Source of the DNA: Trypanosoma brucei | Lineage: Eukaryota | Reading direction: 5' to 3' | NCBI GenBank assembly: GCA_000002445.1 | Contig: CP000067.1 | Span: forward strand, 1,408,001 to 1,472,000 | DNA: 64,000 nucleotides | Shown: positions 27,274 to 61,700 of the stretch, piece after piece | How positions within the stretch are numbered: the first letter of the stretch is position 1 | Layout of the letters: every line of letters begins with the position of its first letter | The notes under the pieces: generated by a model | Database searches by the model: none | Told to the model about the DNA's origin: nothing | Seen by the model: only the letters and a program-made list of their open reading frames with translations | Translations under genes and position numbers: made by a program

Positions 27274-27829
27274 GTCTACAAAGAAGTTATCGAGGGAAAA
27301 ACAATTTAAATTGGCAAATGCGAGAATTCGCGCAGTTGTTAGAAACACAATTAGCTGACAAATTCATGTTCATCACAATTCAATGTAGACCGCTATGAAA
27401 GAACTCATAAAGGTCGTATGAGGCATGAGGATATACGTCCACGAGGGAGACATTTGAAATCATGAATATCTCAACAGTTATTAAACTTTACAACTTAAGT
27501 AGGACATCCACTCCCAAACTAGGCAATATTTTAAAAGTTACATTTGGGGGAAAGGGACCGTTAATCACGGTTTCGAACGATACCCAAAAACTGTTCATAA
27601 CCAAACCTCCCAGTTTTGACCGAAACGAAACGGCGTAACTGTCATGTGATCAACAAATGAGTTCCAAGGAAAAATAATCAACGAACGGTATAGTATGCCG
27701 TCGGTTATTACACACAGACACACACAAACAGAAAGTAACTAAAGTGTTTCAGGAATAGGAGTGACGCTAATACAATCCTAACAAACTATAGGGTGAGGGA
27801 TCTCATAGTTCCCAAGCAACCTCAATAAT

Positions 27830-28840
27830 TCAGGCCCTCTTACGCCAAAAGGGAAAAGAAGGTAGGATTTCTCTTTTCCGTCCAAGTCGGAATTCACACT
27901 GCATCGCTGCCCAATTGCTATTCAACCACATTAGCTTTGAGGGTGCCGGTGGTATTACACCTTCAGGAAAGTAGTCCATTAACATTTCGTAATCGGCTTC
28001 CTGTATGTGGTGTATCACAACAGACATGTTCCTAACGCTCTTCTTCACACCAAACTTGCCCGCATTGTGAAAGTGACAACGACCCATCTCCACACTTATT
28101 AGGTTTCTGTACACTACCTTTTCTCTCAGTATCATTCCAACCATCACATCTTCATAGAACATGCCAAGATCAAGAAAGTCAAAATAGTCCCACATAGAAA
28201 AGGGCATGTTCACTAGACGCTCAAGAGGTTTATACGAAATGATGGCTTGTGCAGTGTCCCTGGAGAGAGTAATGCAATATCCGTTCACATATGTAAGTTG
28301 GTTACGCCGCCATATCCGGTTATAGTAGTTGTAACGACCCATATACAAACCATGACGAGGCATTACACGAAGGTCCGCAAGGTATTTTGGAACACGAATA
28401 AATATGTCATCATCACCCTTCACAATGTAACTTACGTTAGGAAACATGTGAAGAGCAAACCGAAGCCACAAATATGTTTTCCGACTCATCGCAACCTCAG
28501 CCTCAATTCCCCAGTTTCCATTCTCACCAATCTTCTTCCGTGTGGATGGAGAGACATCATTTGTTGGTAGTGTAATAATGTCATGTGTACGTGCGGCCTC
28601 TTCCTTTAGTGAGTGTGAAATCAAATAACTGTTTGACTGATGTGGTGCGAGAAGATATAATGGCAGGAGACTCCCACTAAAGTTGTTTGATCGTGTGGCC
28701 ACGCCACTATACTTCCAGCATGTCTGTCGCTGCAAGTCACGCCGCCTGCTTCTCTCACTGTTGTCCACAGAAGGAATTCCAAGGACGGCTAGGAATCTTT
28801 GTGCCTTCCACACGGCAGCAACATTAGACGGAACGAACAT
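27830..28840 (-). pseudogene. 5'-truncated terminal copy of the glycosyltransferase array. It lacks the cytosolic tail, the signal-anchor and ~64 N-terminal residues, so it is probably a relic.
   Basis: Similarity to the repeat unit stops at ~28852. The unit reads …catcttcgtctatcggttgtg… whereas this copy reads …catccttttattaaaaaatg…. The remaining ORF (336 aa, MFVPSNVAAV…) has no N-terminal hydrophobic anchor. Confidence 0.6.
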
Positions 28841-45047: not shown

Positions 45048-47555
45048 CTATTGGCAACATTTGTTGCTATTGACCTTGGTTGCAGGGGGACGCCTCAAGT
45101 TTTCATTCTCACGCCTGAGTTCGTTAATTTCCTTCTGAGCATTGGCATTGCGTTCCTCAGCTTCCCTCTCCAAATCAATATACCTTCGCCTCAACTCTTC
45201 AAGCTCCTTCTGGAGAGTTGCTATTTTCTCACGTAGCTCCTCATTTTCTGTATTGATAGCTGTGACAGTCGACCGCAACTCAGCATTTTCGTCACTGTGC
45301 TCCTGCTTCAAAGGGGTACATGCCTTTTGTTCCTCTCGCAGCGAGCTCACTTCGTGCTTTAAATTTTCTATTGTCTTGTGGCTGGCCGTAAGTTCCGCCA
45401 GAAGACTCTTCAATTCATTCTCAGTGGCTTGCTGTGACTCTTTCCACCGAGCTTCCGCTTCTCGCCGTTCTTTCACCGTCCTAGTAAGTGTATCAACTTG
45501 CCTCTGGAGTTCCTCCTCCTTCCTTTTGTCACGACTGTAAGGGTCGACTTTTTCCCTTTTTAGTGACTCAGCAAGGGAAATGGCGGCCTGCTCCTTCTTT
45601 GTGCTTTCGCTTAGACGCGAACGCAGTTGCAAAATCTCATCCTGAAGCCGACCGACCTCAGCGGCACATGCCGCCTTTGCTCCATCGACATCTTCAGCAG
45701 TGTCTGGGCTCTTCTCTTTTGTTTCACCCTTGGTTGCATCCACAGCCTTATTTTGCGACATATACTTCTTGATGTCATCCGTCTGCCGTTTGCACTTCAC
45801 CTTCAGCCGTTCACACCATTCCTTCAGAGATGAAATTTCGTTTTCGGAAGACTCTTTTAGTGCCTTTAGCTCCTTGCGGGTTTCAATCGCTTCTTGTTTG
45901 TACTTCCTCGCCTCCCACCTCAGATGCTCCATTTCCTTTCCGTCGCCGGACGCTCCTTCCGACCTCACGGTTGCTTCGGAAACCGGTTGGCGTTTCGATG
46001 CCGCAGGGGGCTGCCCTTGAGATCGGTTCTTAAGTCCTTTGTTCTCAGAGATAATGCGCTGTATTTCCAGTTGCTGCTCGGCAGATTGCCTCTGAAGTTC
46101 TTCGAACTGATCGACCAACATGTTGTATTTAACAACAAAAGAACCCAGAGCCTCTCTGTCTTGTCCCGTGTTCCCCATTTCCGACCCGGAAGCGTTCATA
46201 TCGCCTGATACGCCTTCGAAAATGCCTTCAAATTCAGGGAGCAACTCGCCTTGCGACGCGCCAGATATCCTTCTGACATTGGACGAAAGCCTCGCATTCT
46301 CATTGTACAGTTCCTGCTGTCTGTCTTTCAAATCTTTGTTCTCTTCTTCAAGTGCTCTAATTTGTTCCGTTGCCATCTTTAGTTCATCCTTTACTTTCTG
46401 CATTGTCTGATTCCTTGTCTCCCTCTGCCTTAGCGTTCGAAGTTCCGCCTCCACTTCAGCTGTCTTTCTCTGCAACTCCTCTACACTTGCTTTGTACGTG
46501 TCTGCTCGTTTGGCAAACATCCGCTTCGCCTTAGCCTCATTGTCCGCTCGTTCCGACTCCACCCGAAACCTCATCTCCGCCTCTTGTTGAGCCTGTTTGA
46601 GGCTCTTCATTTCTCCCCTCAGCGCGAGGGCATCCTCTTGCGCCCGCTGCAACTTTGTCACAATATCACTTAAACGCTCCGGCCTGGACCTCGTTGAGGT
46701 TGCGACATCAGTCACTGGAGCTGTTGTAGTGGTAGCGGAGTTATTGGCGCCGGGAGGCTCATCCCCTCGAACGTGGGTTGTGCTCCCTTTGGGAGTAAGC
46801 TTGTCTCCAGAAGTTAAATGCACGTCAGCTGCCGTCGCCAGTGCCTGGGGAAACTTCCCCACCGCTGCGGTTGACGGTTTAGTCAATGCCTTCGACCCTG
46901 CCTCCGTTCCCGCTCTTTGCGGGCCTAATAGCTTTGTCACCGATTTGATATCTGCTGAAGCCCTCATCCGGTCACCAACGGTATCCCCACTGTCCGTACA
47001 AGTTCGATTGGCTATATCTGACGCCAGTGGTCTTTGCCCCCCGCGGTGTGAAAACTCGGTGCTGCTACGGTTGTTCAGGTTTTGGCTTGTTCTCTGTCTC
47101 TGACGGGCGGCAGCCTCTTCTACCCCACGCCGAATAGCTTCCTCCGCCTCCAGTCGTTCCCTCTCAATCTCCCTGGCCTCGCGCTGCAGCAGCTCAACTA
47201 TCTGTTCATCTGTCATGTGCTTGACCACCTCGGAACGCTCTACAGAACGTAAGCGCAACCAATCATCATGTTCAGCTCTTTCCATCTTCGACCGGGCCGC
47301 GCGCTCACGTTCGATTTGCATACAACGGACGACCCGCTGCTTCCGAAATAATTCGTCAGAGGTTTGTGCCTCGTCACGAACGCTCGAGCGACAGCTCACA
47401 CGACCACTGTGGCGAGAGTTAGGGCTGCTTGCGCGATCGGAAATAACCAAGCTGTGTCTATGGGAGTAGTCTACAATCTTCATAGAGCTATCTGGAGAAA
47501 CATTCAGCTCAACTACCGTTGAAGGACTAACAGCCATGAAATCTTCGACCTCCAT
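45048..47555 (-). CDS. Large coiled-coil protein (~835 aa), probably cytoskeletal or flagellar. The track start is TTG; the first ATG is at 47555.
   Basis: The C-terminal ~600 aa are almost entirely heptad-pattern E/K/R/L/Q-rich helix (…LRTLRQRETRNQTMQKVKDELKMATEQIRALEEENKDLKDRQQELYNENARL…). Confidence 0.55.
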   Translation of the reverse strand: MEVEDFMAVSPSTVVELNVSPDSSMKIVDYSHRHSLVISDRASSPNSRHSGRVSCRSSVRDEAQTSDELFRKQRVVRCMQIERERAARSKMERAEHDDWLRLRSVERSEVVKHMTDEQIVELLQREAREIERERLEAEEAIRRGVEEAAARQRQRTSQNLNNRSSTEFSHRGGQRPLASDIANRTCTDSGDTVGDRMRASADIKSVTKLLGPQRAGTEAGSKALTKPSTAAVGKFPQALATAADVHLTSGDKLTPKGSTTHVRGDEPPGANNSATTTTAPVTDVATSTRSRPERLSDIVTKLQRAQEDALALRGEMKSLKQAQQEAEMRFRVESERADNEAKAKRMFAKRADTYKASVEELQRKTAEVEAELRTLRQRETRNQTMQKVKDELKMATEQIRALEEENKDLKDRQQELYNENARLSSNVRRISGASQGELLPEFEGIFEGVSGDMNASGSEMGNTGQDREALGSFVVKYNMLVDQFEELQRQSAEQQLEIQRIISENKGLKNRSQGQPPAASKRQPVSEATVRSEGASGDGKEMEHLRWEARKYKQEAIETRKELKALKESSENEISSLKEWCERLKVKCKRQTDDIKKYMSQNKAVDATKGETKEKSPDTAEDVDGAKAACAAEVGRLQDEILQLRSRLSESTKKEQAAISLAESLKREKVDPYSRDKRKEEELQRQVDTLTRTVKERREAEARWKESQQATENELKSLLAELTASHKTIENLKHEVSSLREEQKACTPLKQEHSDENAELRSTVTAINTENEELREKIATLQKELEELRRRYIDLEREAEERNANAQKEINELRRENENLRRPPATKVNSNKCCQ

Positions 47556-48392
47556 ATTCCCCTGCAATGTCCTCAGCCTAACCCCAGCACTCCTTTAATG
47601 TTTCAGAAACCGTTTTTATCTCTCCTCTCACTGTCGCTCACTTGGCGGTGTACAATAACTGATGTGTCGAAAAAAGAAAAGGCCACCTTAACGATACGCT
47701 TCGTGTGCTCCACTTGTGGGGTTGTACCGCTGGCCAATGGAAAAGCTCAAAAGGTGGAGAAGACACAGCTGCCTCGCAATGGCAAAAATCACGTTAGTTT
47801 TCGATACTGGAAACTCGATAGTATATCCTGTGCGCCGCCGTACAACTTCCTCCGCACTGGGAAGATCAATGCACACGCTGCAAGCTAGAATCCTCGCAAG
47901 TTGTTCTGTCTGCTTGTTATACGATAAATACTTACAAAAAGTCGAAAACGGGGAATACTGAAAGGGATCGCAGATGAGAATTGTGAAAAAAAAAAACGTA
48001 TAGGACACACTCCGAGGCAAGCGAAGACTTCTAATCTGTAAGTTCCTCAGGTGAGCGACGACAGTGAAAAAGAAGGAAAATAACGCGGCACATTTTGCAC
48101 GGCAACCCTCGAGCCCCCAAGCATCTTTTTCTTCACTACGCTGGTAAGGCTACTACAACCCGCTAGCATCGTTGAGTTATCCGTCCGCTCGTTAAGTTGC
48201 TCACACTCACAACCACATAAACAAATAAACCTTTAAATACAACACAAACCCCCAACTACAGTAGTTGCAAAACCAAGACTCACACCTTCGTTGGATGCGC
48301 TGTACGAGCCAATGTGGATGGCGCTGCACAGGGCAAGGAAAACAAAATCGGTTGAAGGCCCCTACAACTTGCAGTCGAAGCGCCTCTAAGCT

Positions 48393-50429
48393 TTAAACTG
48401 CAGCAGAGGCAATATGGGCAAGTAAAGTGCTTCCTCCGACTATGCCATCTGCATGAACGCAAAACTTCACCTCTCCGTCACATGATGCCTTCACAACATG
48501 CTCCATTTTCATCGCCTCAAGTATAAGTATTGCCTGACCCTGCCGCACAAGCGTACCATCGGCAACGAGCAGCTTTGTGACCTTCCCAGGCATAGGGCTG
48601 AGCACGGACGCGGAGCCGTTGGCCTGAGCAGAAGTACTCCCAAAGTCTGTGGCCAGAGGTTGCAGGGCCAACGTGTAGAAACCCTGCGGCAGTGCTACAG
48701 TTACCTCGCTGTCGGTGACAAATGACGTGAAACCAAACCGTGTTTCTCCGTCCACCGTAACCCTAATGAAGGTAGAAGAATCCGGCATGTTGGTCGTGCT
48801 CTCAACATAGACTGTCACAGAACTGCTGTCAAAGTCGCAGGTGAAACACATCTTTGTGGAGACAGTGACACGAACGACAACAGGGTTTCCACCCACAGTA
48901 AAGCAGACACCCTGAAATATCTGGCGGTTCGGCCAAAACAACGTAGACGCGCCTCTTTGCGAGCAGAGATACGACACAGCCGCTAGTGCCAAAACATTAT
49001 TTGGGATTTCCCTTGGTTGGAGCAAATTAACGCTGTTATCTTCAATAAACCTAGTTGTCACGCCCCCCTCGACGAAGCCGGGGTTCGAGAGGCAGCGCTG
49101 AAGAAAGTCAATATTTGTCTCCACACCCACAATGTGATAAGAAGCCAGTGCCGTCCGCCGACCCTCGAGGGCGGCGGCGCGGTTGTCACCCCACACAACC
49201 AATTTTGCGATCATAGGATCGTAGTGAACTAACACGTCGTCACCGGCACGGAAACCCGTGTCCAAGTGCACCTTTACAGTACCTCGGTTGCCTTGGGGAG
49301 GCTCTTTAAGGTAACGTAGCCGGCCACCCACGGGAAGGAACCCATTCCTCGGCGATTCGGCGTAAATACGAGCCTCGACGCTGGCTCCGCTCATAGAAAT
49401 GTCCTCCTGACGGAATCCCAGAGGAAGGCCCATTGCCGTTTGCAACTGCAGCCGCACGAGATCCAATGGCCTCCCCCTCACCTGACACACCTGCTCCGTC
49501 ACCGGGTGTTCCACCTGAAGGCGAGTATTCATCTCCATGAAGAAAAATTCGTCTTTCTCAGTGTCAAATATGAACTCCACCGTACCGGCTCCGACGTATC
49601 CGACAGCCCTTGCTGCCGTCAAAGCTACGTCGCCGATTCGACGGCGCATGTCCACGCTGAGACCTGGCGCCGGGGCCTCTTCAATAACCTTCTGGTGGCG
49701 CCTTCGGACGCTGCAATCTCTCTCAAAGAAGAAAACACCATTGTCAAAACTATCGAAAAAAATTTGGCATTCAATGTGGCGGGGGTGCATTACGTATCAT
49801 TCCAAAATAACGCGATCATCCTTAAAGAAGTTAATGGCCTCACGCTTGGCGCTCTCAAGCATGAGGTGGAACTCAGTCTCTTCCATCACAATCTTCATCC
49901 CCTTTCCGCCACCGCCGGAAACAGCCTTGATCAGGACCGGAAAGCCAATAGTTTTGGCCTCATGTAACAGCCGATCGGGGTTTTGATCTTCTCCGTAGTA
50001 GCCAGGCACGATGGGCACACCAGCCGCTTCCACGATGCGCTTGCCCTCACTCTTGGAGCCCATTGACAACATGGCGGCCGGCGGTGGTCCTACAAACTTC
50101 AGCCCCGCTGCCAAAACCGCCGGAGCGAACTCAGCGTTTTCGGAAAGAAATCCGTAACCCGGGTGGGCAACGGCAGCTTGCAGTTTTTTCGCTGCGCATA
50201 TGATGCGGTCGCCTCGCAGATAGGACGTGGACGCTGGGGGTGGGCCCAAGACGAATGCCTCATCGGCCTCCACCACGTGCTTCGCGTTGTGTTCACCCTC
50301 ACAACAAACGGCTACCGTACGGATGTTCATTTCGCGACAGGTACGGAATACTCTGCACGCAATCTCTCCATGGTTGGCGACCAGGACTTTTTTAAAGTCT
50401 CCATGGTGGAACACGTTGTATCGGAGCAT
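48393..50429 (-). pseudogene. Biotin-dependent acyl-CoA carboxylase alpha subunit (3-methylcrotonyl-CoA carboxylase alpha-like: biotin carboxylase + BCCP). An in-frame TGA at 49797-49799 interrupts it, so it is a pseudogene or a sequencing error.
   Basis: The upstream ORF (49797-50612) carries the BC N-domain (KVLVANHGEIACRVFRTC…GYGFLSENAEFA…GFPVLIKAVSGGGGKGMKIV). The downstream ORF (48393-49790) continues in the same frame with the ATP-grasp and C-domain (PRHIECQIFFD…ERDCSVRRRHQKVIEEAPAP…EMNTRLQVEHPVTE) and ends with the biotinylation motif EAMKMEH. The junction reads DDRVILE-TGA-YVMHPRHIE, where homologues have …IEK(F/Y)I…PRHIE. Confidence 0.6.
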
Positions 50430-50620
50430 CCCCAGAAGAGTGATAACGACCAGAACAAGTGAATGCAATGTGGGGGATAGAAAAAAGTACAGAACAGCAC
50501 ACGAAGAGAACCCCCCTTGAGCCCAACTATCCCGATGATGCTTCAAGCGGAGTGGTTCACACCACTCGTCTTGTTGCAGAAGTTGGCTGTTTCCTTCCTC
50601 GGCCACATTCATTTCACTCC

Positions 50621-51777
50621 TTACTTAGGCAATTGAGAGAACGCGCTCTCTGTATGCGCATGGTCTTCCCCATCGATAATTGGAAGAACAGCCAAAAAAT
50701 GCTCAGCATCCCTTAGATCTCTCGCGAGTATGGCCGCCCGCTTCGCTAGCGCGTCCTGTTCCACCTCTCTCAAGAGGCGAGGAACGTTACCGCGGTGGTA
50801 CTTCTTCCCGTAAAAGGCCCGGCAGAGCGCCGACGCCTCCTCCACACCACATCGCGCCCGATCACCCCGCCACTCAAATGGATCAACAGGGAGCAGGCCA
50901 TCGCCCAACACGCTCACTTTTACATCGCGGGCAGAGTCTTTTATTGCTGGTGTGGTGGCTGGAACGATCAAGACGCGGGAGGACTTGCTGGTACTGCTCC
51001 CTAGCACCTCTTGGATAGCTGGATGTAGTGCTATAGAGTGGAGATCTTGAATTTCCCTCCGGGCTTTTCTAATGAGCCTCCATGTAATGGCATTATCAGC
51101 ATGCCACATGTGAATTACCAACCCTGATCCCACAACGATTACTACATCAGCTGCTCCAAAGATTCTTTCCGTGGTCTGCCTTCCCCCCGGGGAGACGCCT
51201 GTCTCTTCGTCAAATAACACCGCCAGCCGGTCGGGATCGTCCGCAATCACGAGCGAGGCAAGTGAGGTTCCTTTAGCGGTCGTGATGATGGCCTCAGCCT
51301 CTGTTTCAAGGCCATACATCTTCTGCAAGCTCCAAGCCCCACTTCCATCACCTGTCTCAAATGCATCAAAAGCTTCCGTCTCCCAACTGATGTCACCACC
51401 GAACCGTAAGTACTCGGTGCGCAGTGTGCGCTGCAGTGCACCCTCCGCGCAATGGTACACCGACTCACCATCTGCACAACCAGGAAAATACTGCCTTCCC
51501 TAATCGTCTCCAAGTCTGGCCCAACAAAACGCCAACCTTTAGCCTTTTGAAGAATCCTCTCGACCTTGGCATTAGTGCAGCCGAGGTCCCTTAGGAGTTT
51601 CAGTGTTTGGCTTGTAATCACGCAACGTCTCCTGTTGTTGAGCTCATGGCTGAGATCAAGCCGTTTCTCGACTAACTGGACATTAAACTCCCTCCACCGC
51701 ATGCCTATCCCCATCGCATACGCGCCTACACCGCTGCCAACGAGCAGGACCTTACCCCACGGTTTCACAGCGTACAT
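50621..51777 (-). pseudogene. Rossmann-fold (GxGxxG) FAD/NAD(P)-binding oxidoreductase-like gene that appears split by a frameshift near 51460-51510
   Basis: The upstream frame (51247-51966; first ATG at 51777: MYAVKPWGKVLLVGSGVGAYAMGIGM…) carries a dinucleotide-binding motif. It overlaps by ~210 nt a second frame (50621-51460, opening just after a TAG at ~51510) that encodes …AADVVIVVGSGLV…VSVLGDGLL…. Genes in a trypanosome transcription unit do not normally overlap like this. Confidence 0.4.
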
Positions 51778-52069
51778 CACTACCCGTAACGACAAAAAGA
51801 ACGAAAGGGACAACACATAAGCACGCGCACATATATGCACATACATGAACATTATCAAGCGGAATTGGGCAACAGGAAGTATTTGCGCCACCTCGTTTCG
51901 GAAAAGGATACACGACAACAACACAATTATCCTGCCATCCCCAAGTCTCCCATTTCCACAAGGCAAAACGAATGCTCAGAAAGAAATTTAAAGCAAAAGA
52001 AACATCTCCCAGCCAGCTACCACCGCACAGCCTGCATCATCTGCCATAGCAATTTCCACAGCTCCTCTA

Positions 52070-52420
52070 TCAAGATCTGATCTCTTGCACGACAATCAAA
52101 ACATACTGCTTGTCTACGTCTGGTGCTATCAGTATTTCGGTCAACCCGAGACCCATACGAAGGAAGGTTAGGTCATCCTTCCAGTCAATAGTACGGATGG
52201 TGGAGGCTGCCAACGCTGTGAAGCCATTTATTTTATCTGCATACTTTTTGACTTTCCGTTCATCTGATGAAAAACCTGAATACCTCATAACTCGCCCATC
52301 TGCAGGGTTCAGCACAAGATATCCAACAACACCCTCATGCTTGGCGATGCGGAGCAGTACTTCCTCCACAGATTTGATTCGCCGCTCACGCTCGTTGGTA
52401 GTTGATGCGTTAAATTCCAT
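52070..52420 (-). CDS. Dynein light chain roadblock/LC7, 116 aa. The track start is GTG; ATG at 52420.
   Basis: VEEVLLRIAKHEGVVGYLVLNPADGRVMRYSG…TIRTIDWKDDLTFLRMGLGLTEILIAPDVDKQYVLIVVQ aligns with roadblock/LC7 ([30 protein letters not shown]…[37 protein letters not shown]). Confidence 0.75.
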   Translation of the reverse strand: MEFNASTTNERERRIKSVEEVLLRIAKHEGVVGYLVLNPADGRVMRYSGFSSDERKVKKYADKINGFTALAASTIRTIDWKDDLTFLRMGLGLTEILIAPDVDKQYVLIVVQEIRS

Positions 52421-52754
52421 TCGCTTCACAGCACCACTACTTTCCAGCTAAAGCAACAACAACAACAATTACTTTAAAAAAAAAAAGAAAGCGCTTGTGC
52501 AGAAGATAGAAGTTAGTAGCACACGGGTAAGCACACAGGCCACAATTGCAAGGCCCTAGTGGGGCAAATTTTTCTGATGACGTTAGTTCACTGATAGTAT
52601 ATGCTCTAAAATACATGAACCACCGTGTCACGAAATGGAGCGCAACTCTCTAGTTTCCAACTTGCTACATAATACTTCCTTCTGCCACTTGTCCGAATAA
52701 CGCCGACTTCTGCCTCACTTGCCCCCCCTCGCCAGTGTCAGCAGGGCACCGCCA

Positions 52755-55700
52755 TCATCTGGCGGTCCTCCTCGTAACAACAGCAAATGAGGGAAATGTG
52801 GCCTCACGCAAGCGATCTACCTCGTTTTTAAGGCGAACAAGTTCCTCTTGCTGGCAGCGAGCCAACTCCTCAAGTTCACTATTCTCGTATAGTTCCCTCA
52901 TCCTCTCACGGAGACGATCTTTATCATTGTTGTGTTCCCCAAGCATACCCCATACAGCTTTCTTATCCTCAACGCTGTTTGTCAGAGCTTGGACTTGGTT
53001 GTTCAGGTACTGGTTCTCCGCGCGTCTGTCGTTAATTTGCATTTTTAGCTTTGATATGACCCGGTTACGCTCCTCAACCTTCTTTGACATGACACTTCGA
53101 ACAGCCTCGATTCGTGCATCCATCTTGTTTATTTCCCTTTCGAGAGACGTTACAGCGCCGGTATGGATGGTCTCCTGCATCTGCCGAGTCACTCTTAATG
53201 TGTGCAACTGCCGTAATTCCATTTCTAGCGTTCCAATGCAGTATAACAGACGTTCTGTTTCCCAAGAGCATGTTTTCATAGACTGCCGAAGTTGTGATGA
53301 ACGACTCATAAGGGATCGTATTTCGTCAAAGCTAGCGAAGATAAGGTCGTTGTAATCTGTAATGTTCTTCACCCATCGAATGGAGAAGTCGGTGAAATCA
53401 TCGCTCACCATAGCGTTCTCATCCTGCACCTGTCCTTGCTGCAGCGTGTATAAGTTTTGTATGTCGAGTACCTTCTCTATGACTTCTTTTCTACATGCCT
53501 CCTCGGCCTTTTCCTTGTCGTCAAGTGCAAACTGTGCCTTCTTTTTTTCCGTCTCAACCTCCACCACTTCATCATTGAGTGCGTCTGCTTCGCCTCTAAG
53601 GTGAATTATTTTATCCCTTGCCTCCACGACTGCCCTACAGCACTGGCAGTACTGTTCCCATAGTGGAATAGGAACCACACCCGAGCGAGTGGGTTCCGGG
53701 ACCTTAGCTAGGCCATCCTCGTACTTGGAACGCCAAGTCGTGAAGCGCCTGTTCAGTCTCTCTCCCCAATCCGGATCTGTGAATGGGGGCAAACAGCGCA
53801 TGTCCGTAATCATGTTCTTTTCTTCTTCAATGCAGTCCTGCACCCTCGCCTCCGAGGCCAAATACAATTTCAGGCGGTACTCGTAAAGACTATCCAATTG
53901 CCTCAACCGGCACAGAAGGTCCTCCTCCTCTCGCTTGACACCCAGAAACTTATTGCGGATCGTTTTCTTGAGTAGAAACAGACACAGCGCATTCACCTGG
54001 TGTAGCTCCAGCTCGTCCACGAGTTGAGCGACTAGCATACGGTCAGTTCTTAGCACGTCAATCTCATCATCTATTGCTTTCGCAGAAGTCATGTTAGCTT
54101 TCACCAATGCTGCAACTTCCCCTCGCAGTAACTCTTTCTTCTCATTGATCAACACAGTTTGTTCTGCAACCTCTTTTTCATACTCCTCAAATATTCTCTG
54201 TTGCTCATCACTCCGCTCTTCAGGCGGTACATATTGCTCGAGTGAGTTGTCAGCGAATGGGGGAATCGGCACGTTGACGCGAAGAACCTCGGTGACTTTC
54301 TCGAGGCCATCCATCCAGGTCTTTAAAGCAGCTTCATCGGAAGGGGAAACTACAAGCTCCCCATCGTCACTTTTGACGGCTAGTTTGAGGAGTTCAGGGT
54401 CAATCTCAGAGTCAAAAACCTCAAAGACAGTTTGGGGGTCTTCCTCTATATCAAAAACAGGAGTGAATAAAACATTTGGTGGACACGTGTGCTCTCCCAG
54501 CTGCTGCATGATGCGAACGCAACGTCCGTTCCTTTCCGCAATGAGATTCAGCTCTCGGCTCTTGCGCTCCCGCAAGGTGTCAAACCGGATGTTGAATGAC
54601 TTTTTTTCGTGAAGAATTTTACATTCTAGCAAAATCAACTGTATGGTCGCGCGAGGGCCGGTGTAGACGTCCAAAGTGTCATAAAGCAATTCGTCTACAT
54701 CACTGGGGGGCCCGCAAACCTGCTGCTCCGTGCATAAGTTCCCCTCCTTAGCCCTTTTAACTAGTGATGACAACGTAAAGCACTCCTCAGTCTTTATCTG
54801 TATAGCCCTCATCAGTTTGATTTTTTTCTGTATTTTTGCTCGTTGGGCACAAGGTTTTCGCAGATGGAAGTTGTGAACTTCCGTTTCGGGATCTGTCATG
54901 CTCACGATTTTCGAGCGTTGCACCTCCATGACGTCCCAACATTCAGTTTTGATCGTGTGTTGCACGAACTCATTGTGAACCAGGCTGTAGTAGTCATCCT
55001 CCCTTGCCTTGTGGATCTCCATCTCACATTCCTCGTTAAACGCTTGTCGTTGTTCAGGCAAAAGGAAGTCTTCTGCGCGCACAGTTGGGGTCCTTTCCTG
55101 GAGCAGCTTCTCTACTTCCATCCTCAGGTCGGCCAGAGCCGATATTATACGGCAGCGCGACCGTTCTGCTGAAAGTGTTTCAGCATCACTTGGAGAACTT
55201 GCACGACTCGGTGATGTTGAGATAGCTCTTTGGTGCCAGAAGGGTTCACTCCATGAATAGTGGATAGGTGATTTCCCAACGGGAACTAAATGAACAACAC
55301 TATCGTTTCCTCCACAGACAAACCCTCCGGCAGCATTCCACACCGAGAGGCACGTAATACCGCCCCTACCAAATGGTCGTAACAAAAATTCCTTAAGTGG
55401 GTGTTTCTTTTCTTTCGTCGGTGGCACAGGAGGTAATTTCATCAAGTAGTGTGAGATATCCCTTACAACTACTCTGCCATCTCCTCCTGCGGAAATGATG
55501 CTATCCCCTCCAAGACGCTGCAGCACATTGCCACCGCATTCATGATCACGCATAAGGAAGTAAGGCCTCAGGGGCTTACTCTCCTTTACTCGCTGCCGCT
55601 CCAGGGCGTACATCTTGGTGTCTTTGTCCACCGAGTGGACGAAGATGTTGATCACATCGCCGTCACCGTAGAGAGGCAGAAAGTCGTTAACCGGGAAGTC

Positions 55701-57137
55701 CAAGCGCCAAGTCATATCAACAGTCACGCCAGCTGACGCGGAATCACACTTCCCAGTGAAGCGTAAGTTGTGCACCTCGCCATTGTTACATGCTGCCAGC
55801 ACCGATCGCCCACCATTCACTGCCCATCGCAAGTTAGTCACGGCACAAGCGAATATATCCGAGGAGGCTGCGGTTTCAAGAAGTCCATCTGCCACCTCAA
55901 TGAAATGGACTACATTTTTGTCACATACAGCTAAGAGTGAAACTCCGTCAGATGTGCAAGCGGTCAAGGGACAGTCACTTACCTTCATCTGGGAAACAAC
56001 ACTAACGGTATTTTCCACTGTGAAGGAACGGACGAACCCGCTGTCATATACGACTACCGCTACGGAGCCCACGACGCACGCATCTACAACTTTCTCGGGA
56101 AATCTGACAGGGGTGTGCCCTGCTGTATTCGTGTCCTGATCATAAGTAACGAGACTCCCATCTAAACACACTATCACGACGAGACCTCCCAACACCAGAA
56201 GCTTCACAGTGTCGGAGGCGCTCCGGCGTCGAACAAAAACAGACTGCGCGGTGTCCACAGAAATTTTTGTTACATCGGTACTGGTTGCAACTAAAACATC
56301 ATTTACGTCTGGTAACGTCAGTAAACGAACTACCGAACGACCTAATCTCACAAGCAGCCGTTGTGCCTTCTGATCAATATTGTAAGTAAACACATCACCA
56401 CACTCCGTTCCAATGAATAAAAGAGTCCCGTTTTGCAGTAGAGCAGTAACATTGTGAGGTGTTTCGCAGTTTATATAATTCTTCATATCTGTTCTCAGCT
56501 CGTCCAAGAGAACTACCTGCCCCCTACCAGCACCGCAGTACAGACCCTCAGTGCCCCATACGCAAGAGTGAAAATAGTGTCCCTTCGAACTCAATGTGAG
56601 AATACTTGGTACAAATGTGGCCGAATCCATGTTGCACGCAATTCGAACACCGTGTGGTTCCAAAACGGCTATACAGTCATGCCGATGCAACGGAAACGTT
56701 AAGTGCTTGCAGAAGACACCGCCTAGCTCGGTCGAGGCACATTTCACCAATCTGTTGCCGCGAGCGGCTGAATAAAAAGTAACACAAGTTGTTGGTATAC
56801 ATGTTAGAAGGGCTAACATTTCTCCATCACTCGAGAATAACATGTGCTGCACATCCACGGTCGCAACATTATCAATACACTGCAGGTGGTGACGTTCTGG
56901 AAATCGGAAAACGTGCAGCGACACATCCAGCTTCACCTCAGTTACGCACAGCAAACCTGCAGAGGGTGAAAACGCCAGCGCACCGATCGCGTAGCGGCCT
57001 TCACAAGGGATCCACTGGGACGACTCTTCCTTGCGTCGGATAACGATGCCACCCCCCGCTCCTAGGAGAAAGTCGTCACCCGCAGCGACGAGAGCAGAGG
57101 GAGAGTTGAACCCTAGAATGCGCGCGTTGGTTGCCAT
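52755..57137 (-). CDS. Large protein of 1460 aa with an N-terminal WD40/beta-propeller-like half and a C-terminal coiled-coil half (cilia/flagella-associated CFAP43/44-like architecture)
   Basis: Genuine ATG. The N-terminal ~700 aa have blade-like segments with scattered WD/GH dipeptides. The C-terminal ~700 aa are heptad-rich (…LRQLHTLRVTRQMQETIHTGAVTSLEREINKMDARIEAVRSVMSKKVEERNRV…). Family assignment is tentative. Confidence 0.5.
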   Translation of the reverse strand: MATNARILGFNSPSALVAAGDDFLLGAGGGIVIRRKEESSQWIPCEGRYAIGALAFSPSAGLLCVTEVKLDVSLHVFRFPERHHLQCIDNVATVDVQHMLFSSDGEMLALLTCIPTTCVTFYSAARGNRLVKCASTELGGVFCKHLTFPLHRHDCIAVLEPHGVRIACNMDSATFVPSILTLSSKGHYFHSCVWGTEGLYCGAGRGQVVLLDELRTDMKNYINCETPHNVTALLQNGTLLFIGTECGDVFTYNIDQKAQRLLVRLGRSVVRLLTLPDVNDVLVATSTDVTKISVDTAQSVFVRRRSASDTVKLLVLGGLVVIVCLDGSLVTYDQDTNTAGHTPVRFPEKVVDACVVGSVAVVVYDSGFVRSFTVENTVSVVSQMKVSDCPLTACTSDGVSLLAVCDKNVVHFIEVADGLLETAASSDIFACAVTNLRWAVNGGRSVLAACNNGEVHNLRFTGKCDSASAGVTVDMTWRLDFPVNDFLPLYGDGDVINIFVHSVDKDTKMYALERQRVKESKPLRPYFLMRDHECGGNVLQRLGGDSIISAGGDGRVVVRDISHYLMKLPPVPPTKEKKHPLKEFLLRPFGRGGITCLSVWNAAGGFVCGGNDSVVHLVPVGKSPIHYSWSEPFWHQRAISTSPSRASSPSDAETLSAERSRCRIISALADLRMEVEKLLQERTPTVRAEDFLLPEQRQAFNEECEMEIHKAREDDYYSLVHNEFVQHTIKTECWDVMEVQRSKIVSMTDPETEVHNFHLRKPCAQRAKIQKKIKLMRAIQIKTEECFTLSSLVKRAKEGNLCTEQQVCGPPSDVDELLYDTLDVYTGPRATIQLILLECKILHEKKSFNIRFDTLRERKSRELNLIAERNGRCVRIMQQLGEHTCPPNVLFTPVFDIEEDPQTVFEVFDSEIDPELLKLAVKSDDGELVVSPSDEAALKTWMDGLEKVTEVLRVNVPIPPFADNSLEQYVPPEERSDEQQRIFEEYEKEVAEQTVLINEKKELLRGEVAALVKANMTSAKAIDDEIDVLRTDRMLVAQLVDELELHQVNALCLFLLKKTIRNKFLGVKREEEDLLCRLRQLDSLYEYRLKLYLASEARVQDCIEEEKNMITDMRCLPPFTDPDWGERLNRRFTTWRSKYEDGLAKVPEPTRSGVVPIPLWEQYCQCCRAVVEARDKIIHLRGEADALNDEVVEVETEKKKAQFALDDKEKAEEACRKEVIEKVLDIQNLYTLQQGQVQDENAMVSDDFTDFSIRWVKNITDYNDLIFASFDEIRSLMSRSSQLRQSMKTCSWETERLLYCIGTLEMELRQLHTLRVTRQMQETIHTGAVTSLEREINKMDARIEAVRSVMSKKVEERNRVISKLKMQINDRRAENQYLNNQVQALTNSVEDKKAVWGMLGEHNNDKDRLRERMRELYENSELEELARCQQEELVRLKNEVDRLREATFPSFAVVTRRTAR

Positions 57138-57472
57138 CTAATATAAAAGTACACTGCGTAATAATACCCTATAATGTTTGGCACGGAGCGCGCGGATGGA
57201 GCAACAACGAAAGTTTATGAACCGAACAGGGAGTGACGCCACCAAAAACAGTTTTCTTTTGGGCTCGTATATAGCCCAAGCTGCCACAAAAGCAACACAG
57301 AGTGTTGATACCGGACACACATACGCGCAAACAAACAAGCAAAAAAAGCAAACGAACAACTATAGATTACCCCCGCACTCCCATGTCTCTTCTAATAATT
57401 GAAAGAATAAAAATATGTATTCACAGCAATAAAAAAATAATTAAAACAATCGTTAAGCAAGCGAAAGCACGT

Positions 57473-58768
57473 TTAGGCGACACCTATACCACGTTGAATC
57501 GCGTGAACCCACATTTCCATGTCCCCATGTGATACAGCCTGAAACCACATACCCTTTCCGCCGACCGTATTGAGGGCAAACACAAAATCTCTCTTTGCAG
57601 TACTGTGAGGCACCGGGCAAGCACCCTGCACTTGTTCAAGGTTTAGGCCTTTTGGATTATTTCCTTCTTCATCATCTGTTAGAATGAGCTGTCCGCGAAC
57701 AATCTGCAAAACCCTCGGTTTCCACGACTTCCCGTTTCCACCACCCAGTTTGTTTACATGTCCCCGGTGTGTAACGTCGTAGTTAATTTGTGATTCCAGG
57801 AAACGATGTGCATCAGGGCTCACTTCCGAGGATAAGATTTCGCTGACCTGTGATACGAGGACCTCCTTCACCGAGTCCAAAATTCGTTCGTTTTTCTTCA
57901 GTGCTTGCACAAATAGTTTAAGGCCCTTATTGATGTAAGGTATCTGGAAATTTTCCCTTACACTTGGTCTGTCATTAGGGTCCGCTACAAGGATACCATC
58001 AACAACATGCTTAAATCCGGACAAGAAGCTATCCGGCAAGGGAGCATATGTGCCAGCAAGAACCTTCGACATCAAACCTTTCAAATTACTTGCTGAAAAC
58101 GGTTTCTTCATGCCCATAATTTCGTACAATAAAACACCCAACGACCACACATCAGCCTTCTTATTGTACCTTTTATTATTCCACAGCTCTGGTGCCAGGT
58201 AGTACGGTGTGCCACAGAACGTACTTGCAACGACGCGTGATACGGTGTCTTCATATTGATGACTGAATCCAAAGTCTCCCAGTTTAACTAGTCCTGTAGA
58301 TGTGAGCAGCACATTGGCAGATTTGATATCGCGGTGCAGCATCTTATGGCTGTGGATGTAGTCAAGGGCAAGACACAGTTGTAAGAAGAGAAACAAGGCC
58401 TCGTGTTCTTGAAAGTAGCGCGCATCTCCTGTGCCCCGAAGCTTTATTTGCTCATCAAGGTTGCCTGAGTCAGCGAATTCCATGACAATAAGCAACCGAT
58501 CATTTTCCTCGTGGTCCTCAATGTAACGAATAATGTTTGGATGATTACAGTTGGCCAGACACTTGATTTCGCTCTGCGCGTACCGCTTATCCCGCTGAGA
58601 CATCTTGCTTAAACCCATGACTTTTGCTACACAAAGAGACCCATCCTCCACGCTCTCCGCTACATATGCTTCACCATAGGAACCCAATCCTACAATCCCT
58701 TTGTTCAGGTATTTACACCGACCACCGCTGCCGTCGGTTCCAAGGATCGTCGAGAACGGTTCGGCCAT
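57473..58768 (-). CDS. Second NEK-family protein kinase with a C-terminal PH-like domain, a paralogue of 33877-35199
   Basis: GLGSYGEAYVA, AKVM, HRDIKSANVLL, DFGFSHQ, GTPYYLAPE. The C-terminal …RVLQIVRGQLILTD…DFVFALNTVGGKGMWFQAVSHGDMEMWVHAIQ ends in a PH-type Trp-containing helix. About 45% identity to the other NEK in the kinase domain. Confidence 0.8.
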   Translation of the reverse strand: MAEPFSTILGTDGSGGRCKYLNKGIVGLGSYGEAYVAESVEDGSLCVAKVMGLSKMSQRDKRYAQSEIKCLANCNHPNIIRYIEDHEENDRLLIVMEFADSGNLDEQIKLRGTGDARYFQEHEALFLFLQLCLALDYIHSHKMLHRDIKSANVLLTSTGLVKLGDFGFSHQYEDTVSRVVASTFCGTPYYLAPELWNNKRYNKKADVWSLGVLLYEIMGMKKPFSASNLKGLMSKVLAGTYAPLPDSFLSGFKHVVDGILVADPNDRPSVRENFQIPYINKGLKLFVQALKKNERILDSVKEVLVSQVSEILSSEVSPDAHRFLESQINYDVTHRGHVNKLGGGNGKSWKPRVLQIVRGQLILTDDEEGNNPKGLNLEQVQGACPVPHSTAKRDFVFALNTVGGKGMWFQAVSHGDMEMWVHAIQRGIGVA

Positions 58769-61700
58769 CGAAACTCTACATAATGATGGCCGCTGACGGT
58801 GGACTGAGCGCCCAAGGGTTGGTTACCACAGGGAAATTGCAAGCAGCAACCACAATCCACTTTGGAAGAACGCGCCGAACAACACACAAACCCCCAAAAC
58901 GACTGCTGTGTCCACAGGAAAATTTCACCCACAACAAGCACTGAGGATGTTTTGTACTACGAAGGTTACGGATCTGGGACGCGCAACACAAACAAATCAA
59001 TACTATACATCTGGCTGAACCTCTAAAGTTTGTCAGGCGTCCGTAACGGATTTAGTTACACACAATTGGGCCTTCAGCCAACCATTTCGGTCACCTGTCA
59101 AAAACTGGAGCGAGAAAGTTAACAAGGGCAACCACATGCTACTCAATTGATAGCTACCACTTGTGAGTGGGGGAAGTCTTCTCAGTGGAACTGATGAAGG
59201 CTTAACACCAAATAACATGCGAGAGACATTGAAAGGATTCACACTACACGGCAAAATAAAGCGTGAGTGGGTTGGTCGGAGTTGCGCCCGCGTTCAGGTA
59301 GTAGTGGGTCGTTTTTCGTTATTTAACCTTGCCATATGTTCTTAGCAAATGACTCGGTACCACCTCATAAATAAATGCGTAAATAGCAACCGCCACCTTT
59401 CAGGAAATTTTGGAGAAGGGCAAACAAGTAGGTGTAGAACTTCGACATATTGAAGCTCGATAACCCCCCTGAGATTCACCTCAGTACCTACCTTACCCTC
59501 TTTTAACAATTTATGTCAAAAGGTCGTAGCAGAGATATTCAATAAACGTAGATAATGGCATTTCTCTGTACAAATACACAACCAACAAGCTGTCATTAAA
59601 GATCCTTTACACCATAAAAGTTAATCATTTTTAGTTGTCTAATTGATAAAAATATATATATTGTAAATCTCAATAAGCATAAAACCACCTACAGGTGCCA
59701 GCGCTCTGTGTGGCGTACGTACTTGGGGGAAATGTCACTCGTAACTGCATATGTACATTTATGCATCAAACAAGCACGTTGCAATTCACCAAACGCCAGG
59801 CCCAGCCAAGCCCTTGAGTCAGAACACATGGTGGCAAAAGCAAAACCTCAATCCCTTATAGATACATAACAGCATACATTACTGCTCAAAGTACTTAAAT
59901 TATTGCCGCGAACGAAATTCAGCCAGTTCGAGAGGGGAAGGAAAAGAAACGTGCGCACCAGCAACGGTACTTTAAGTACTTCCTCATGACGGACCGTGGA
60001 CCGCAACCCGACAATAGATAATCTTACCGATATATGGTGTCGAAGGACCTGCTAACAGACCAACTTAGCCACCGCACAAACACGACAACCGCAAATTAAG
60101 AGGGGGACCAATATGCGTTAGCGACATGCCTATTGAAATGCCATCAACAGGAAGAGCAAAATATCTTTCCACGAGAGTGTTCTCACGCAACTATCAATGG
60201 CACGGCATTGAGAGAAATGTTTAAAAACTGGACACATGCACAGTTCGACTCAGACGTATATCGCAGAACGCAGTATCTTCAAATATGAGTCATCACTTAA
60301 ACTCATAGAGCAACAAAAACAGTTAAGTAAATAAACCTCCTTGTACACGTTGATAAAACCTTTTGTTGGTGAATGGTAACCCACCAAATGCACAGAATGC
60401 ATGCAAAGCGAACTTCAAGCGCAACAAAATATGTACAAGTACAGTTATCAAACACAACTGGCACTCTTTCGACAGTTATTAACGATGGACCACCACGCTG
60501 ACGGACAGCAATGACACGGCTCACGGAAGTGTTTTCTCACACCGCTTCGCACCGTGAAGGGCGGTCTGCCAAACGCTCGCCGCGGCAGAGACGCGAAAAG
60601 GGACCGCTCTAACAACCACCCCAGTCCGGTGCACGCCGCCTCCCTCCTGACACTTGACATAGCTAGCAGGTGACATGCTCAGAAGAAGTGACGTGTAACG
60701 GACCCTTTCACCCCTTTCTGTCGACGAGCTTGAGCTCCCAGCGTTAGCTCACAGTGACGGAAGAAGCTGTTGGGGTGCCTTCACATCAATAGTAGCAATT
60801 CTTTCTCGTAAAAAAAAAACGTCCGTTAAGCCAGAGCGCCTCTCGAATTCGAAGCGACACTGGTTGGCTTCAATCCATCACGTTACCCTCCTCCGTATCA
60901 CCCGCGTTGGTATGTTCTTCCACGAGGCTGCCATTTTTTAAAAGTATGCGTAGAAAGAGGCTTGTAGTAAATTCAGATTTCACCACAGACCTGTTGGAGG
61001 CAAAATACACCAGCAGCAAACGGGCAACCGAGTTCCCCATTGAAGAACGGGACAATTGACACATAGGCGCAAGACAGGAATCACGCGCCTCCTCAAGGGA
61101 GGCCGCCGCACCGCCGAGTAGGTAAGCACTCGCGGCGGCGTTGCAAGAATCTGATGCCGCTTGGACACGGCAGTTGCCTTCATGATTAGCGTGAGGGGAC
61201 GCCCAGTGGCGAAATGACTGCAGTTGCCGCCGCCGCAGTTTTCGTTGCGTTAGTCCCCACGTCACCCAGCCACGGTGTTGCAGGTCGCCCTCGACTCGAT
61301 TTTGCAGTGTAGTCGAAACAACCGCGCTCCGAGGTGTTTGACGCACCCACCAACTTTCCTAACCAGGGAGTCTGCACCTGCGAGCCTGACTTGCAGCTAT
61401 CTCTGCTATCCTCAGCCGCGCGTTGCCTTTATAGTGATTGGACCGCTATCTAGGAAAGAAGCGCTCCGTCATGCGCGGCAAGCTCCGTCCCCGCTCACGA
61501 TTTGGACCAATAAATCCCACAACCGAGTGTGCTCTAACGGTCCGCTGGATCATCATGTCCAGGAGAATCGGGGGAGGACTCTCCGTGTTTGTTACGGTGT
61601 AGCGCCGTTGCCTGTCCGACGGGGCTCGGCATCTGCCTCTCCCCTCCCACTGTAGAAAACGTTGTGCTTATTAGCCGAGCGCGCAACAGCGGCTTGAGGC

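What the first reader, a model, noticed from the sequence alone, without database searches (positions are those of the whole stretch)
49760..49830. A single in-frame TGA splits an otherwise intact biotin carboxylase/BCCP gene
The two adjacent minus-strand ORFs are in the same frame and are separated by one TGA codon (49797-49799). It sits at a position where homologous biotin carboxylases have Lys or Arg (…DDRVILE[*]YVMHPRHIE versus …DDRLLIEK(F/Y)I…PRHIE). Every other element of the enzyme is preserved: the ATP-grasp motifs, the C-domain and the EAMKM biotinylation site. So this is either a very recent nonsense mutation, a sequencing error, or a strain polymorphism. An AGA->TGA single-nucleotide change would explain it. 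Loss of a mitochondrial leucine-catabolism carboxylase might be tolerated in a bloodstream-restricted lineage.
Basis: seen in the sequence. Interest (0 to 1): 0.55.

Follow-up and report, generated by a model that had tools for sequence, protein, structure and literature searches.

The report
Known pseudogene copy of trypanosome MCC-alpha
The in-frame TGA is real, but it sits in a decaying duplicate (Tb927.4.5350, chromosome 4) of the Trypanosoma brucei 3-methylcrotonyl-CoA carboxylase alpha gene; the working copy is intact on chromosome 8, and the pseudogene was already reported in 2007, so the finding is ordinary.

Summary

The interpretation mostly fails. The window is T. brucei brucei TREU927 chromosome 4. 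The interrupted gene is the chromosome 4 paralogue (Tb927.4.5350) of the intact chromosome 8 gene Tb927.8.6970, inside the known chr4/chr8 segmental duplication. Jackson (2007) already listed this pair as showing rate asymmetry with "apparent pseudogenisation of one paralog".

- **Not a sequencing error or strain polymorphism.** The same TGA is in the chr4 copies of T. b. gambiense DAL972 and T. b. equiperdum. Both chr8-type copies with DNA in hand read CGA (Arg), and the TREU927 chr8 protein has Arg there.
- **The change was CGA>TGA at a CpG**, not AGA>TGA.
- **The gene is not otherwise intact.** The window copy has replacements at residues invariant in 117-119 of 119 homologues: R81H, M194V, Q303R and R449H.
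- **The chr4 lineage evolves neutrally** (23 N : 8 S, omega about 0.9). The chr8 lineage is constrained (3 N : 8 S, omega about 0.12).
- **Leucine catabolism is not lost.** Endogenous biotinylated MCC has been purified, and the alpha chain of PDB 8RTH is 100% identical to the chr8 product.

One minor new point: the surrounding 10.8-kb block is a mosaic of chr4-type and chr8-type sequence. This suggests exchange between the two paralogues.

The parts
49797..49799 (-). In-frame TGA (codon 272 of the 739-codon frame, codon 211 counted from the MLRYN start). It derives from CGA (Arg) by a C>T change at a CpG.
   Evidence: The three chr4 copies read TGA. The two chr8 DNA copies read CGA, and the TREU927 chr8 protein has R.
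48393..50429 (-). Whole MCC-alpha pseudogene (Tb927.4.5350), from the MLRYN start codon to the natural TAA/TAG-type stop at 48393-48395. It has 678 codons and one internal stop. An upstream in-frame ATG at 50612 gives the 739-codon form that was annotated for the DAL972 chr8 copy.
   Evidence: The gene identifier comes from Jackson 2007, PMC2212663. Neither half is present as a protein in the 15-billion-sequence collection.
49686..50433 (-). Core segment in which all three chr4 copies share derived states against the chr8 copies: window 50433 (silent, upstream of the MLRYN start), M194V, E271 silent, R272*, Q303R, V309 silent. This is the only part of the gene with a clean chr4|chr8 split.
50166..50173 (-). 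Cluster of five nucleotide changes within 8 nt that is unique to the TREU927 chr4 copy (QADAVHPGYG > QAAVAHPGYG). It changes A148 (A or G in all 119 homologues) and V149 (I or V in all 119).
50371..50371 (-). R81H in the ANRGEIA motif. Arg is present in 117 of 117 aligned homologues. TREU927 chr4 only.
49705..49705 (-). Q303R in CSVQRRHQK. Gln is present in 119 of 119 homologues and corresponds to E. coli BC Q233. Shared by all three chr4 copies.
48006..58788 (-). 10.8-kb block that is 98.6% identical to chromosome 8 (NrkA, CFAP43, Robl/LC7 dynein light chain, a TMH/SP hypothetical gene, MCC-alpha and its 3' UTR). It is a mosaic of chr4-type and chr8-type sequence.
   Evidence: Jackson 2007 Table 5

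Best explanation
This is a non-processed, duplicated pseudogene. The distal parts of T. brucei chromosomes 4 and 8 were duplicated, so the genome held two MCC-alpha genes. The chr8 copy (Tb927.8.6970) stayed under purifying selection and makes the biotinylated alpha subunit of the mitochondrial MCC holoenzyme. The redundant chr4 copy (Tb927.4.5350, in this window) took a C>T transition at the CpG of a CGA Arg codon in the ATP-grasp domain, which created TGA. This happened before T. b. brucei, T. b. gambiense and T. b. equiperdum separated. Since then the chr4 copy has drifted neutrally and collected replacements at invariant residues, so even read-through would give a defective enzyme. Shown here: paralogy, the shared TGA, the ancestral codon, neutral versus constrained evolution, and the identity of the solved native enzyme with the chr8 product. 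Inferred: no functional protein comes from the chr4 copy. It is presumably still transcribed as part of the polycistron.
For: 1. Exact look-ups place eight window ORFs on TREU927 chromosome 4 (contig 1,590,432 bp; Tb927.4.5220, Tb927.4.5330, CFAP43 AAZ11125, NrkA AAZ11126). Their paralogues and the intact MCC-alpha AAZ13461 lie on chr8 (2,481,190 bp).
2. Codon 272 is TGA in the TREU927, DAL972 and T. b. equiperdum chr4 copies. It is CGA in the DAL972 and T. b. equiperdum chr8-type copies, and R in the TREU927 chr8 protein.
3. On the chr4 lineage there are 23 non-synonymous and 8 synonymous changes, omega 0.90, not different from neutral (p=0.83). On the chr8 lineage there are 3 and 8, omega 0.12, p=0.0008. 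Fisher p=0.0105. By hand count's site list, both halves are relaxed: 11N:5S before the stop and 11N:3S after it.
4. The window copy changes residues invariant in 117-119 of 119 homologues (R81H, M194V, Q303R, R449H). It also carries residues never seen at A148V, V149A, S190G and L485R.
5. Jackson 2007 (PMC2212663) reports a significant rate asymmetry for this pair (Dn 0.253 chr4 vs 0.241 chr8, P=0.005) 'coincided with apparent pseudogenisation of one paralog'.
6. PDB 8RTH chain A is 100% identical to the chr8 product over 678 residues. That structure is of endogenous MCC captured on streptavidin. PMC6041502 names Tb927.8.6970 as the single biotinylated protein other than ACC.
7. None of the six half-ORFs from the three chr4 copies exists as an annotated protein.
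Against: - The copy has no indels and only one stop in 2.2 kb in any of the three strains, and its 5' and 3' UTRs are about 98% identical to those of the functional gene. It could therefore still be expressed as RNA.
- The counts are small (31 and 11 changes).
- Fixed chr4/chr8 differences were polarised by assuming the chr8 state is ancestral. Homologue conservation justifies this for the amino-acid changes but not for the two silent ones.
- No transcript, ribosome-profiling or proteomic data were examined for the chr4 copy.
Confidence: 0.93

Rival explanations
1. The TGA is a sequencing or assembly error, or a private polymorphism of the sequenced clone, and the gene is really intact.
For: It is a single base substitution with the frame otherwise open. 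The adjacent gene shows a T4/T5 homopolymer difference that could be an error, so the region is not guaranteed error-free.
Against: The same TGA, together with the shared linked changes M194V, Q303R and two silent sites, occurs in the chr4 copies of DAL972 (GCA_000210295.1) and T. b. equiperdum (GCA_003543875.1), which are independent projects. Multiple extra replacements at invariant sites and omega about 0.9 fit real decay. Jackson 2007 treats the gene as a pseudogene.
Confidence: 0.02
2. The TGA is recoded (selenocysteine insertion or programmed read-through), or the two halves are made separately and assemble, so the locus still gives a working MCC-alpha.
For: T. brucei has selenocysteine machinery (own knowledge). 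An ATG lies two codons after the stop (M275). All domains score well above the Pfam thresholds.
Against: No SECIS or any other Rfam family is found in window 47000-50700 at E<=1. The position is Arg or Lys in 117 of 119 homologues and CGA in the paralogue, so there is no precedent for Sec there. Residues invariant across 119 homologues are replaced on both sides of the stop, and both halves evolve at N:S ratios compatible with neutrality. The native enzyme that was solved is the chr8 product. Trypanosome mRNAs are monocistronic after trans-splicing, which makes internal initiation at M275 unlikely (established knowledge).
Confidence: 0.02
3. One reading: loss of the mitochondrial leucine-catabolism carboxylase in a bloodstream-restricted lineage.
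For: The interrupted gene is indeed MCC-alpha.
Against: The same genome holds an intact, constrained chr8 copy. I know TREU927 as a tsetse-transmissible strain (own knowledge). T. b. equiperdum keeps an intact 678-aa copy. Endogenous biotinylated MCC holoenzyme has been purified from T. brucei.
Confidence: 0.01
4. The pseudogene is kept nearly identical to the functional gene by ongoing interlocus gene conversion. It is therefore not just a passive relic but takes part in sequence exchange with Tb927.8.6970. Selection removes conversions that carry the TGA into chr8. This adds to the best explanation and does not replace it.
For: Coding and non-coding DNA are 98.6% identical over 10.8 kb, then identity drops abruptly to 93%, 87% or no alignment. 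Only 15 of 324 biallelic sites separate chr4 from chr8, and they are clustered, including 50433-49686 around the TGA. At 50644-50499 and 49320-48140, TREU927-chr4 groups with DAL972-chr8 against the other three copies. At codons 506 and 555, TREU927 has R/A on chr4 and C/T on chr8, while DAL972 has the reverse. At 50699-50718, TREU927 chr4 carries the chr8-type version of a complex indel patch. The orthologous chr4 copies differ more (1.69%) than TREU927-chr4 and DAL972-chr8 do (1.30%).
Against: Only five sequences were compared. Assemblies of 98.6%-identical paralogues in a diploid can be chimeric. DAL972 was assembled with TREU927 as a guide (own knowledge). Jackson 2007 states that no evidence of gene conversion in trans was seen.
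Confidence: 0.45

Closest known systems
Tb927.4.5350 / Tb927.8.6970 paralogue pair (locus 5) of the T. brucei chr4/chr8 partial duplicons, Jackson 2007, BMC Genomics 8:432 (PMC2212663)
   Same: It is the same locus. The window proteins are exact matches to TREU927 chr4 proteins flanking it. The paper reports CDS identity 0.983, faster non-synonymous evolution of the chr4 copy and 'apparent pseudogenisation of one paralog'.
   Different: The paper does not give the lesion and does not say which copy is disabled. Its discussion also lists the pair among genes 'constrained by strong purifying selection' and retained for dosage, and it saw no evidence of conversion in trans. Here the lesion is defined as CGA>TGA at codon 211/272 and shown to be shared by three subspecies. 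The chr4 lineage has omega about 0.9, and the block is a chr4/chr8 mosaic.
T. brucei MCC holoenzyme alpha subunit, PDB 8RTH (bioRxiv 10.1101/2023.11.27.568864)
   Same: It has the same domain architecture (BC N-domain, ATP-grasp, BC C-domain, BCCP with AMKM) and is about 97% identical to the conceptual translation of the window gene.
   Different: 8RTH chain A is 100% identical to the chr8 product, not the window copy. The window copy has a stop at the residue equivalent to E. coli BC K202 and about 13 further replacements.
Dihydrolipoamide dehydrogenase pair Tb927.4.5050 / Tb927.8.7380 (locus 20 of the same duplicons)
   Same: It is the second pair in the duplicons where Jackson 2007 links rate asymmetry with pseudogenisation of one duplicate of a mitochondrial enzyme gene.
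   Different: It is a different gene and lies outside this window. It has lower CDS identity (0.924) and divergent UTRs, so it looks like an older or unhomogenised decay. It was not examined here.

Membership tests
[quoted passage not shown] | Domain order Biotin_carb_N, ATP-grasp (CPSase_L_D2), Biotin_carb_C, biotinyl domain with the A-M-K-M motif | tested here: met
   Pfam hits for all four domains are above their cut-offs. EAMKM is present.
MCC-alpha, by descent | The closest relatives are MCC-alpha orthologues rather than PCC, ACC or PC | tested here: met
   The top hits are trypanosomatid, human and bacterial MCC-alpha. PCC and PC chains score lower.
Functional MCC-alpha enzyme | Uninterrupted reading frame | tested here: not met
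   There is a TGA at codon 211/272 in the ATP-grasp domain.
Functional MCC-alpha enzyme | Universally conserved residues of the BC domain are retained | tested here: not met
   R81H, M194V, Q303R and R449H fall at positions invariant in 117-119 of 119 homologues.
Functional MCC-alpha enzyme | Purifying selection (omega well below 1) | tested here: not met
   The chr4 lineage has omega 0.90, against 0.12 for chr8.
Functional MCC-alpha enzyme | A biotinylated protein product is detected from this copy | not testable with these tools
   The only solved or purified product is identical to the chr8 copy. No proteomic data were searched for chr4-specific peptides.
Duplicated (non-processed) pseudogene | An intact paralogue exists in the same genome, with conserved flanking synteny | tested here: met
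   TREU927 chr8 AAZ13461 is intact. The NrkA, CFAP43, Robl, hypothetical and MCC gene order is shared.
Duplicated (non-processed) pseudogene | The disabling lesion is reproducible in independent sequences | tested here: met
   The TGA is present in three chr4 copies from three assemblies.
Selenoprotein gene (TGA = Sec) | A SECIS element in the 3' UTR, and Sec or Cys at the homologous position in relatives | tested here: not met
   There is no Rfam match in 47000-50700 at E<=1. Homologues have R or K, never C.

The most novel reading that the evidence does not exclude
The chr4 pseudogene and the functional chr8 MCC-alpha gene still exchange sequence by interlocus gene conversion inside a 10.8-kb homogenised block. 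This creates polymorphisms shared across the two paralogues. Only the roughly 750-bp core around the TGA stays chromosome-specific, because conversions that carry the stop into chr8 are selected against. That would contradict the original paper's statement that no conversion in trans was seen. It would also make this a natural example of a pseudogene acting as a conversion partner, and a potential mutational hazard, for an essential-pathway gene in a trypanosome.
Probability: 0.4. Interest if true: 0.3.

Novelty: already known. Interest (0 to 1): 0.1.

Why it matters
It matters little for biology at large. One duplicate of a metabolic gene decaying after a segmental duplication is the textbook outcome, and this case was published in 2007.

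Its practical value is as a caution. The in-frame stop must not be read as loss of leucine catabolism, as a recoding event or as a sequencing error. Because the two paralogues are 98.4% identical, reads, RNAi constructs, primers and peptides aimed at Tb927.8.6970 will cross-map to Tb927.4.5350.

The mosaic pattern of the surrounding block is of modest interest for how the chr4/chr8 duplicons evolve.

Tried and rejected
1. Exact-product look-ups failed for the two window half-ORFs, CFAP43, the 883-aa protein and the TREU927 chr8 MCC-alpha. TREU927 is evidently not in that gene-position index. The origin of the window was obtained from exact cluster look-ups instead.
2. Selenocysteine or another RNA element: the Rfam E-value scan of 47000-50700 returned nothing.
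3. I looked for the pseudogene halves of all three strains as annotated or Logan-called proteins, to extend the strain sampling. None is in the collection.
4. A first MAFFT --auto run on 120 homologues timed out. It was repeated with fast settings.
5. I considered that the 97% identity to T. brucei orthologues meant a divergent strain or a low-quality sequence. This was rejected once the chr4/chr8 paralogy was established.
6. I considered mitochondrial UGA=Trp decoding. This was rejected because the gene lies on a nuclear chromosome among nuclear genes.
7. TREU927 chr8 DNA could not be fetched, so only its protein (P0122) was used.

Full report
**Observation.** On the minus strand the window reads GAT GAT CGC GTT ATT TTG GAA TGA TAC GTA ATG CAC CCC CGC CAC ATT GAA, which translates as DDRVILE*YVMHPRHIE. 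The TGA is at 49799-49797. The ORFs 49797..50612(-) and 48393..49790(-) share one frame and are separated by that codon alone. The joined translation has the four domains of a biotin carboxylase/BCCP fusion: Biotin_carb_N, CPSase_L_D2 (ATP-grasp), Biotin_carb_C and Biotin_lipoyl. All score far above the Pfam cut-offs. The EAMKM biotinylation motif is present.

**What the gene is and where the window comes from.** A search of 5.8 billion proteins returns trypanosomatid 3-methylcrotonyl-CoA carboxylase alpha subunits (MCC-alpha) at E=0.
- The best cluster holds intact proteins from T. b. equiperdum, T. b. gambiense DAL972 and T. b. brucei TREU927. They are only 97-98% identical to the window translation.
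- Exact-sequence look-ups of eight other window ORFs all hit TREU927 proteins on the 1,590,432-bp contig, which is chromosome 4. These include Tb927.4.5220, Tb927.4.5330, CFAP43 AAZ11125 and NrkA AAZ11126.
- The intact TREU927 MCC-alpha (AAZ13461) and a second set of NrkA and CFAP43 proteins lie on the 2,481,190-bp contig, which is chromosome 8.
- The window is therefore TREU927 chromosome 4, and the interrupted gene is a paralogue of an intact chromosome 8 gene in the same genome.

**Already published.** Jackson (2007, BMC Genomics 8:432, PMC2212663) described the 0.5-Mb chr4/chr8 partial duplicons.
- Pair 5 is 3-methylcrotonyl-CoA carboxylase, Tb927.4.5350 / Tb927.8.6970, with CDS identity 0.983.
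- The relative-rates test gives Dn 0.253 for chr4 against 0.241 for chr8, P=0.005.
- Neither half of the window gene exists as a protein in the collection, whereas its neighbours do.

**Is the stop real, and how old is it?** I fetched four loci: the chr8 loci of DAL972 (L001) and T. b. equiperdum (L002), and the chr4 loci of DAL972 (L003) and T. b. equiperdum (L004).
- All five DNA copies align over 2,223 nt without a single gap.
- Codon 272 is TGA in all three chr4 copies and CGA in both chr8 copies. The TREU927 chr8 protein has Arg.
- The lesion is therefore a C>T transition at a CpG in a CGA codon, not AGA>TGA.
- It is not a sequencing error or a private polymorphism, and it predates the separation of the three sampled subspecies.
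- It is linked to other changes shared by all three chr4 copies: M194V, Q303R and two silent changes.
- No gene was called at this position in the DAL972 or T. b. equiperdum chr4 loci. Their half-ORFs are absent from the protein collection.

**Is the rest of the enzyme preserved?** It is not. Against 119 homologues from kinetoplastids, animals, fungi and bacteria, the window copy shows the following replacements:

| Change (739-codon numbering) | State in 119 homologues |
|---|---|
| R81H (ANRGEIA motif) | Arg in 117 of 117 aligned |
| M194V | Met in 119 of 119 |
| Q303R (CSVQRRHQK) | Gln in 119 of 119 |
| R449H | Arg in 119 of 119 |
| A148V | only A or G |
| V149A | only I or V |
| S190G | only S or A |
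| L485R | mostly L or M |

In none of these cases does any homologue carry the window's residue. By alignment to E. coli biotin carboxylase, the stop corresponds to K202, Q303 to Q233, R449 to R366 and R81 to R10. I recalled the E. coli sequence from memory, and its numbering reproduces the known K116, K159, H209 and K238. The other chr4 copies carry their own private hits, for example R298G in the ERD motif of the T. b. equiperdum copy and R455C and N477I in DAL972.

**Selection.** I counted changes in codons 62-739, which contain 1551 non-synonymous and 483 synonymous sites.
- The chr4 lineage has 23 non-synonymous and 8 synonymous changes, omega 0.90. This is indistinguishable from neutrality (binomial p=0.83).
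- The chr8 lineage has 3 and 8, omega 0.12, p=0.0008.
- The contrast gives Fisher p=0.0105.
- A hand count's site list shows both halves of the gene are relaxed: 11N:5S upstream of the stop and 11N:3S downstream. This argues against a split enzyme or a product reinitiated at M275.

**Function is supplied by the other copy.** PDB 8RTH chain A is 100% identical to the chr8 product over all 678 residues. The corresponding preprint describes the endogenous MCC holoenzyme, captured from T. brucei lysate on streptavidin and carrying covalently bound biotin (10.1101/2023.11.27.568864). PMC6041502 calls Tb927.8.6970 the single biotinylated protein in T. brucei other than ACC. The proposed streptavidin blot would not test it either.

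**Recoding.** An Rfam scan of 47000-50700 at E<=1 finds no SECIS or any other family. Homologues never have Cys at the site. The gene is nuclear, so mitochondrial UGA=Trp decoding is irrelevant. Recoding is very unlikely.

**Surroundings.**
- The window aligns to chr8 at 98.6% over a contiguous 10.8 kb, coding and non-coding alike (window about 48006-58788). This block runs from NrkA to the MCC 3' UTR.
- Past the MCC 3' UTR, identity then falls to 87-94% in patches across the next gene and disappears beyond it. At the other end, past NrkA (window 58788), nothing aligns to chr8.
- Within the block, only 15 of 324 biallelic sites separate the chr4 copies from the chr8 copies. These 15 sites cluster, and one cluster is 50433-49686, around the TGA.
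- Many other sites group copies across chromosomes. TREU927-chr4 groups with DAL972-chr8 against the other three at 50644-50499 and 49320-48140.
- At codons 506 and 555, TREU927 has R/A on chr4 and C/T on chr8, while DAL972 has the reverse.
- A complex indel patch at 50699-50718 is chr8-type in TREU927 chr4 but different in the other two chr4 copies.
- The orthologous chr4 copies of TREU927 and DAL972 differ more (1.69%) than TREU927-chr4 and DAL972-chr8 do (1.30%).

The simplest reading is interlocus gene conversion within this block, which Jackson 2007 did not detect. Chimeric assembly of near-identical paralogues in a diploid cannot be excluded with five sequences.

**Verdict.** The TGA is real and ancient within the sampled T. 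brucei subspecies. It marks the known duplicated pseudogene Tb927.4.5350. The finding is ordinary and already in the literature. The details added here are the exact lesion, its presence in three subspecies, the extra hits at invariant residues, omega of about 0.9 against 0.12, and the mosaic structure of the block. These are refinements, not discoveries.

Noticed in passing
window 51485-51489 (minus strand); ORFs 51247-51966(-) and 50621-51460(-): The gene just upstream of the MCC pseudogene is the Tb927.4.5360-type TMH/SP hypothetical, 410-412 aa in DAL972 chr4 and chr8. In the window it has a T4 run where all four other copies have T5. This shifts the frame at about residue 123 and splits the gene into two overlapping ORFs. 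It is either a second TREU927-specific pseudogene next to the first or a homopolymer sequencing error.
   Followed up: partly
window 50699-50718 (3' end of the same upstream gene): DAL972 and T. b. equiperdum chr4 copies carry a roughly 25-bp patch with a 2-nt deletion and a 1-nt insertion that rewrites the protein's C-terminus. TREU927 chr4 has the chr8-type sequence here. This is a complex shared state that points to chr8-to-chr4 conversion in TREU927, or to assembly chimerism.
   Followed up: partly
window 50166-50173: Five nucleotide differences within 8 nt are unique to the TREU927 chr4 MCC copy (GAC GCC GTG > GCC GTT GCC). This looks like one complex mutational event rather than five independent substitutions.
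   Followed up: no
window 17330-28843 (minus strand): There is a tandem array of near-identical ORFs with a weak Galactosyl_T hit: five ORFs of 425 aa with a 1,759-bp period, plus variant end copies of 407 and 337 aa. The region is AT-rich (GC about 0.42). It corresponds to the UDP-GlcNAc-dependent glycosyltransferase array listed as locus 10 by Jackson 2007.
   Followed up: partly
window 58789-64000: Similarity to chr8 stops abruptly right after NrkA at 58788. Beyond that point only short ORFs occur on both strands, and the GC skew changes sign. This fits the strand-switch and subtelomeric region described by Jackson 2007.
   Followed up: no
window 50430-50612: An in-frame upstream ATG at 50612 extends the ORF by 61 codons. 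DAL972 annotates its chr8 gene with this 739-aa form, while TREU927 and T. b. equiperdum use the 678-aa MLRYN start. The extension has no counterpart in other species, so the DAL972 start is probably over-extended.
   Followed up: partly
L002 and L004 (T. b. equiperdum GCA_003543875.1, CM010675.1): In this assembly the chr8-type locus (about 1.09-1.11 Mb) and the chr4-type locus (about 2.09-2.11 Mb) lie on the same 2,365,359-bp record, and both sets of genes carry DPX39_04... locus tags. In TREU927 and DAL972 the two loci lie on two different chromosomes. This is either an assembly or scaffolding join or a real karyotype difference.
   Followed up: no
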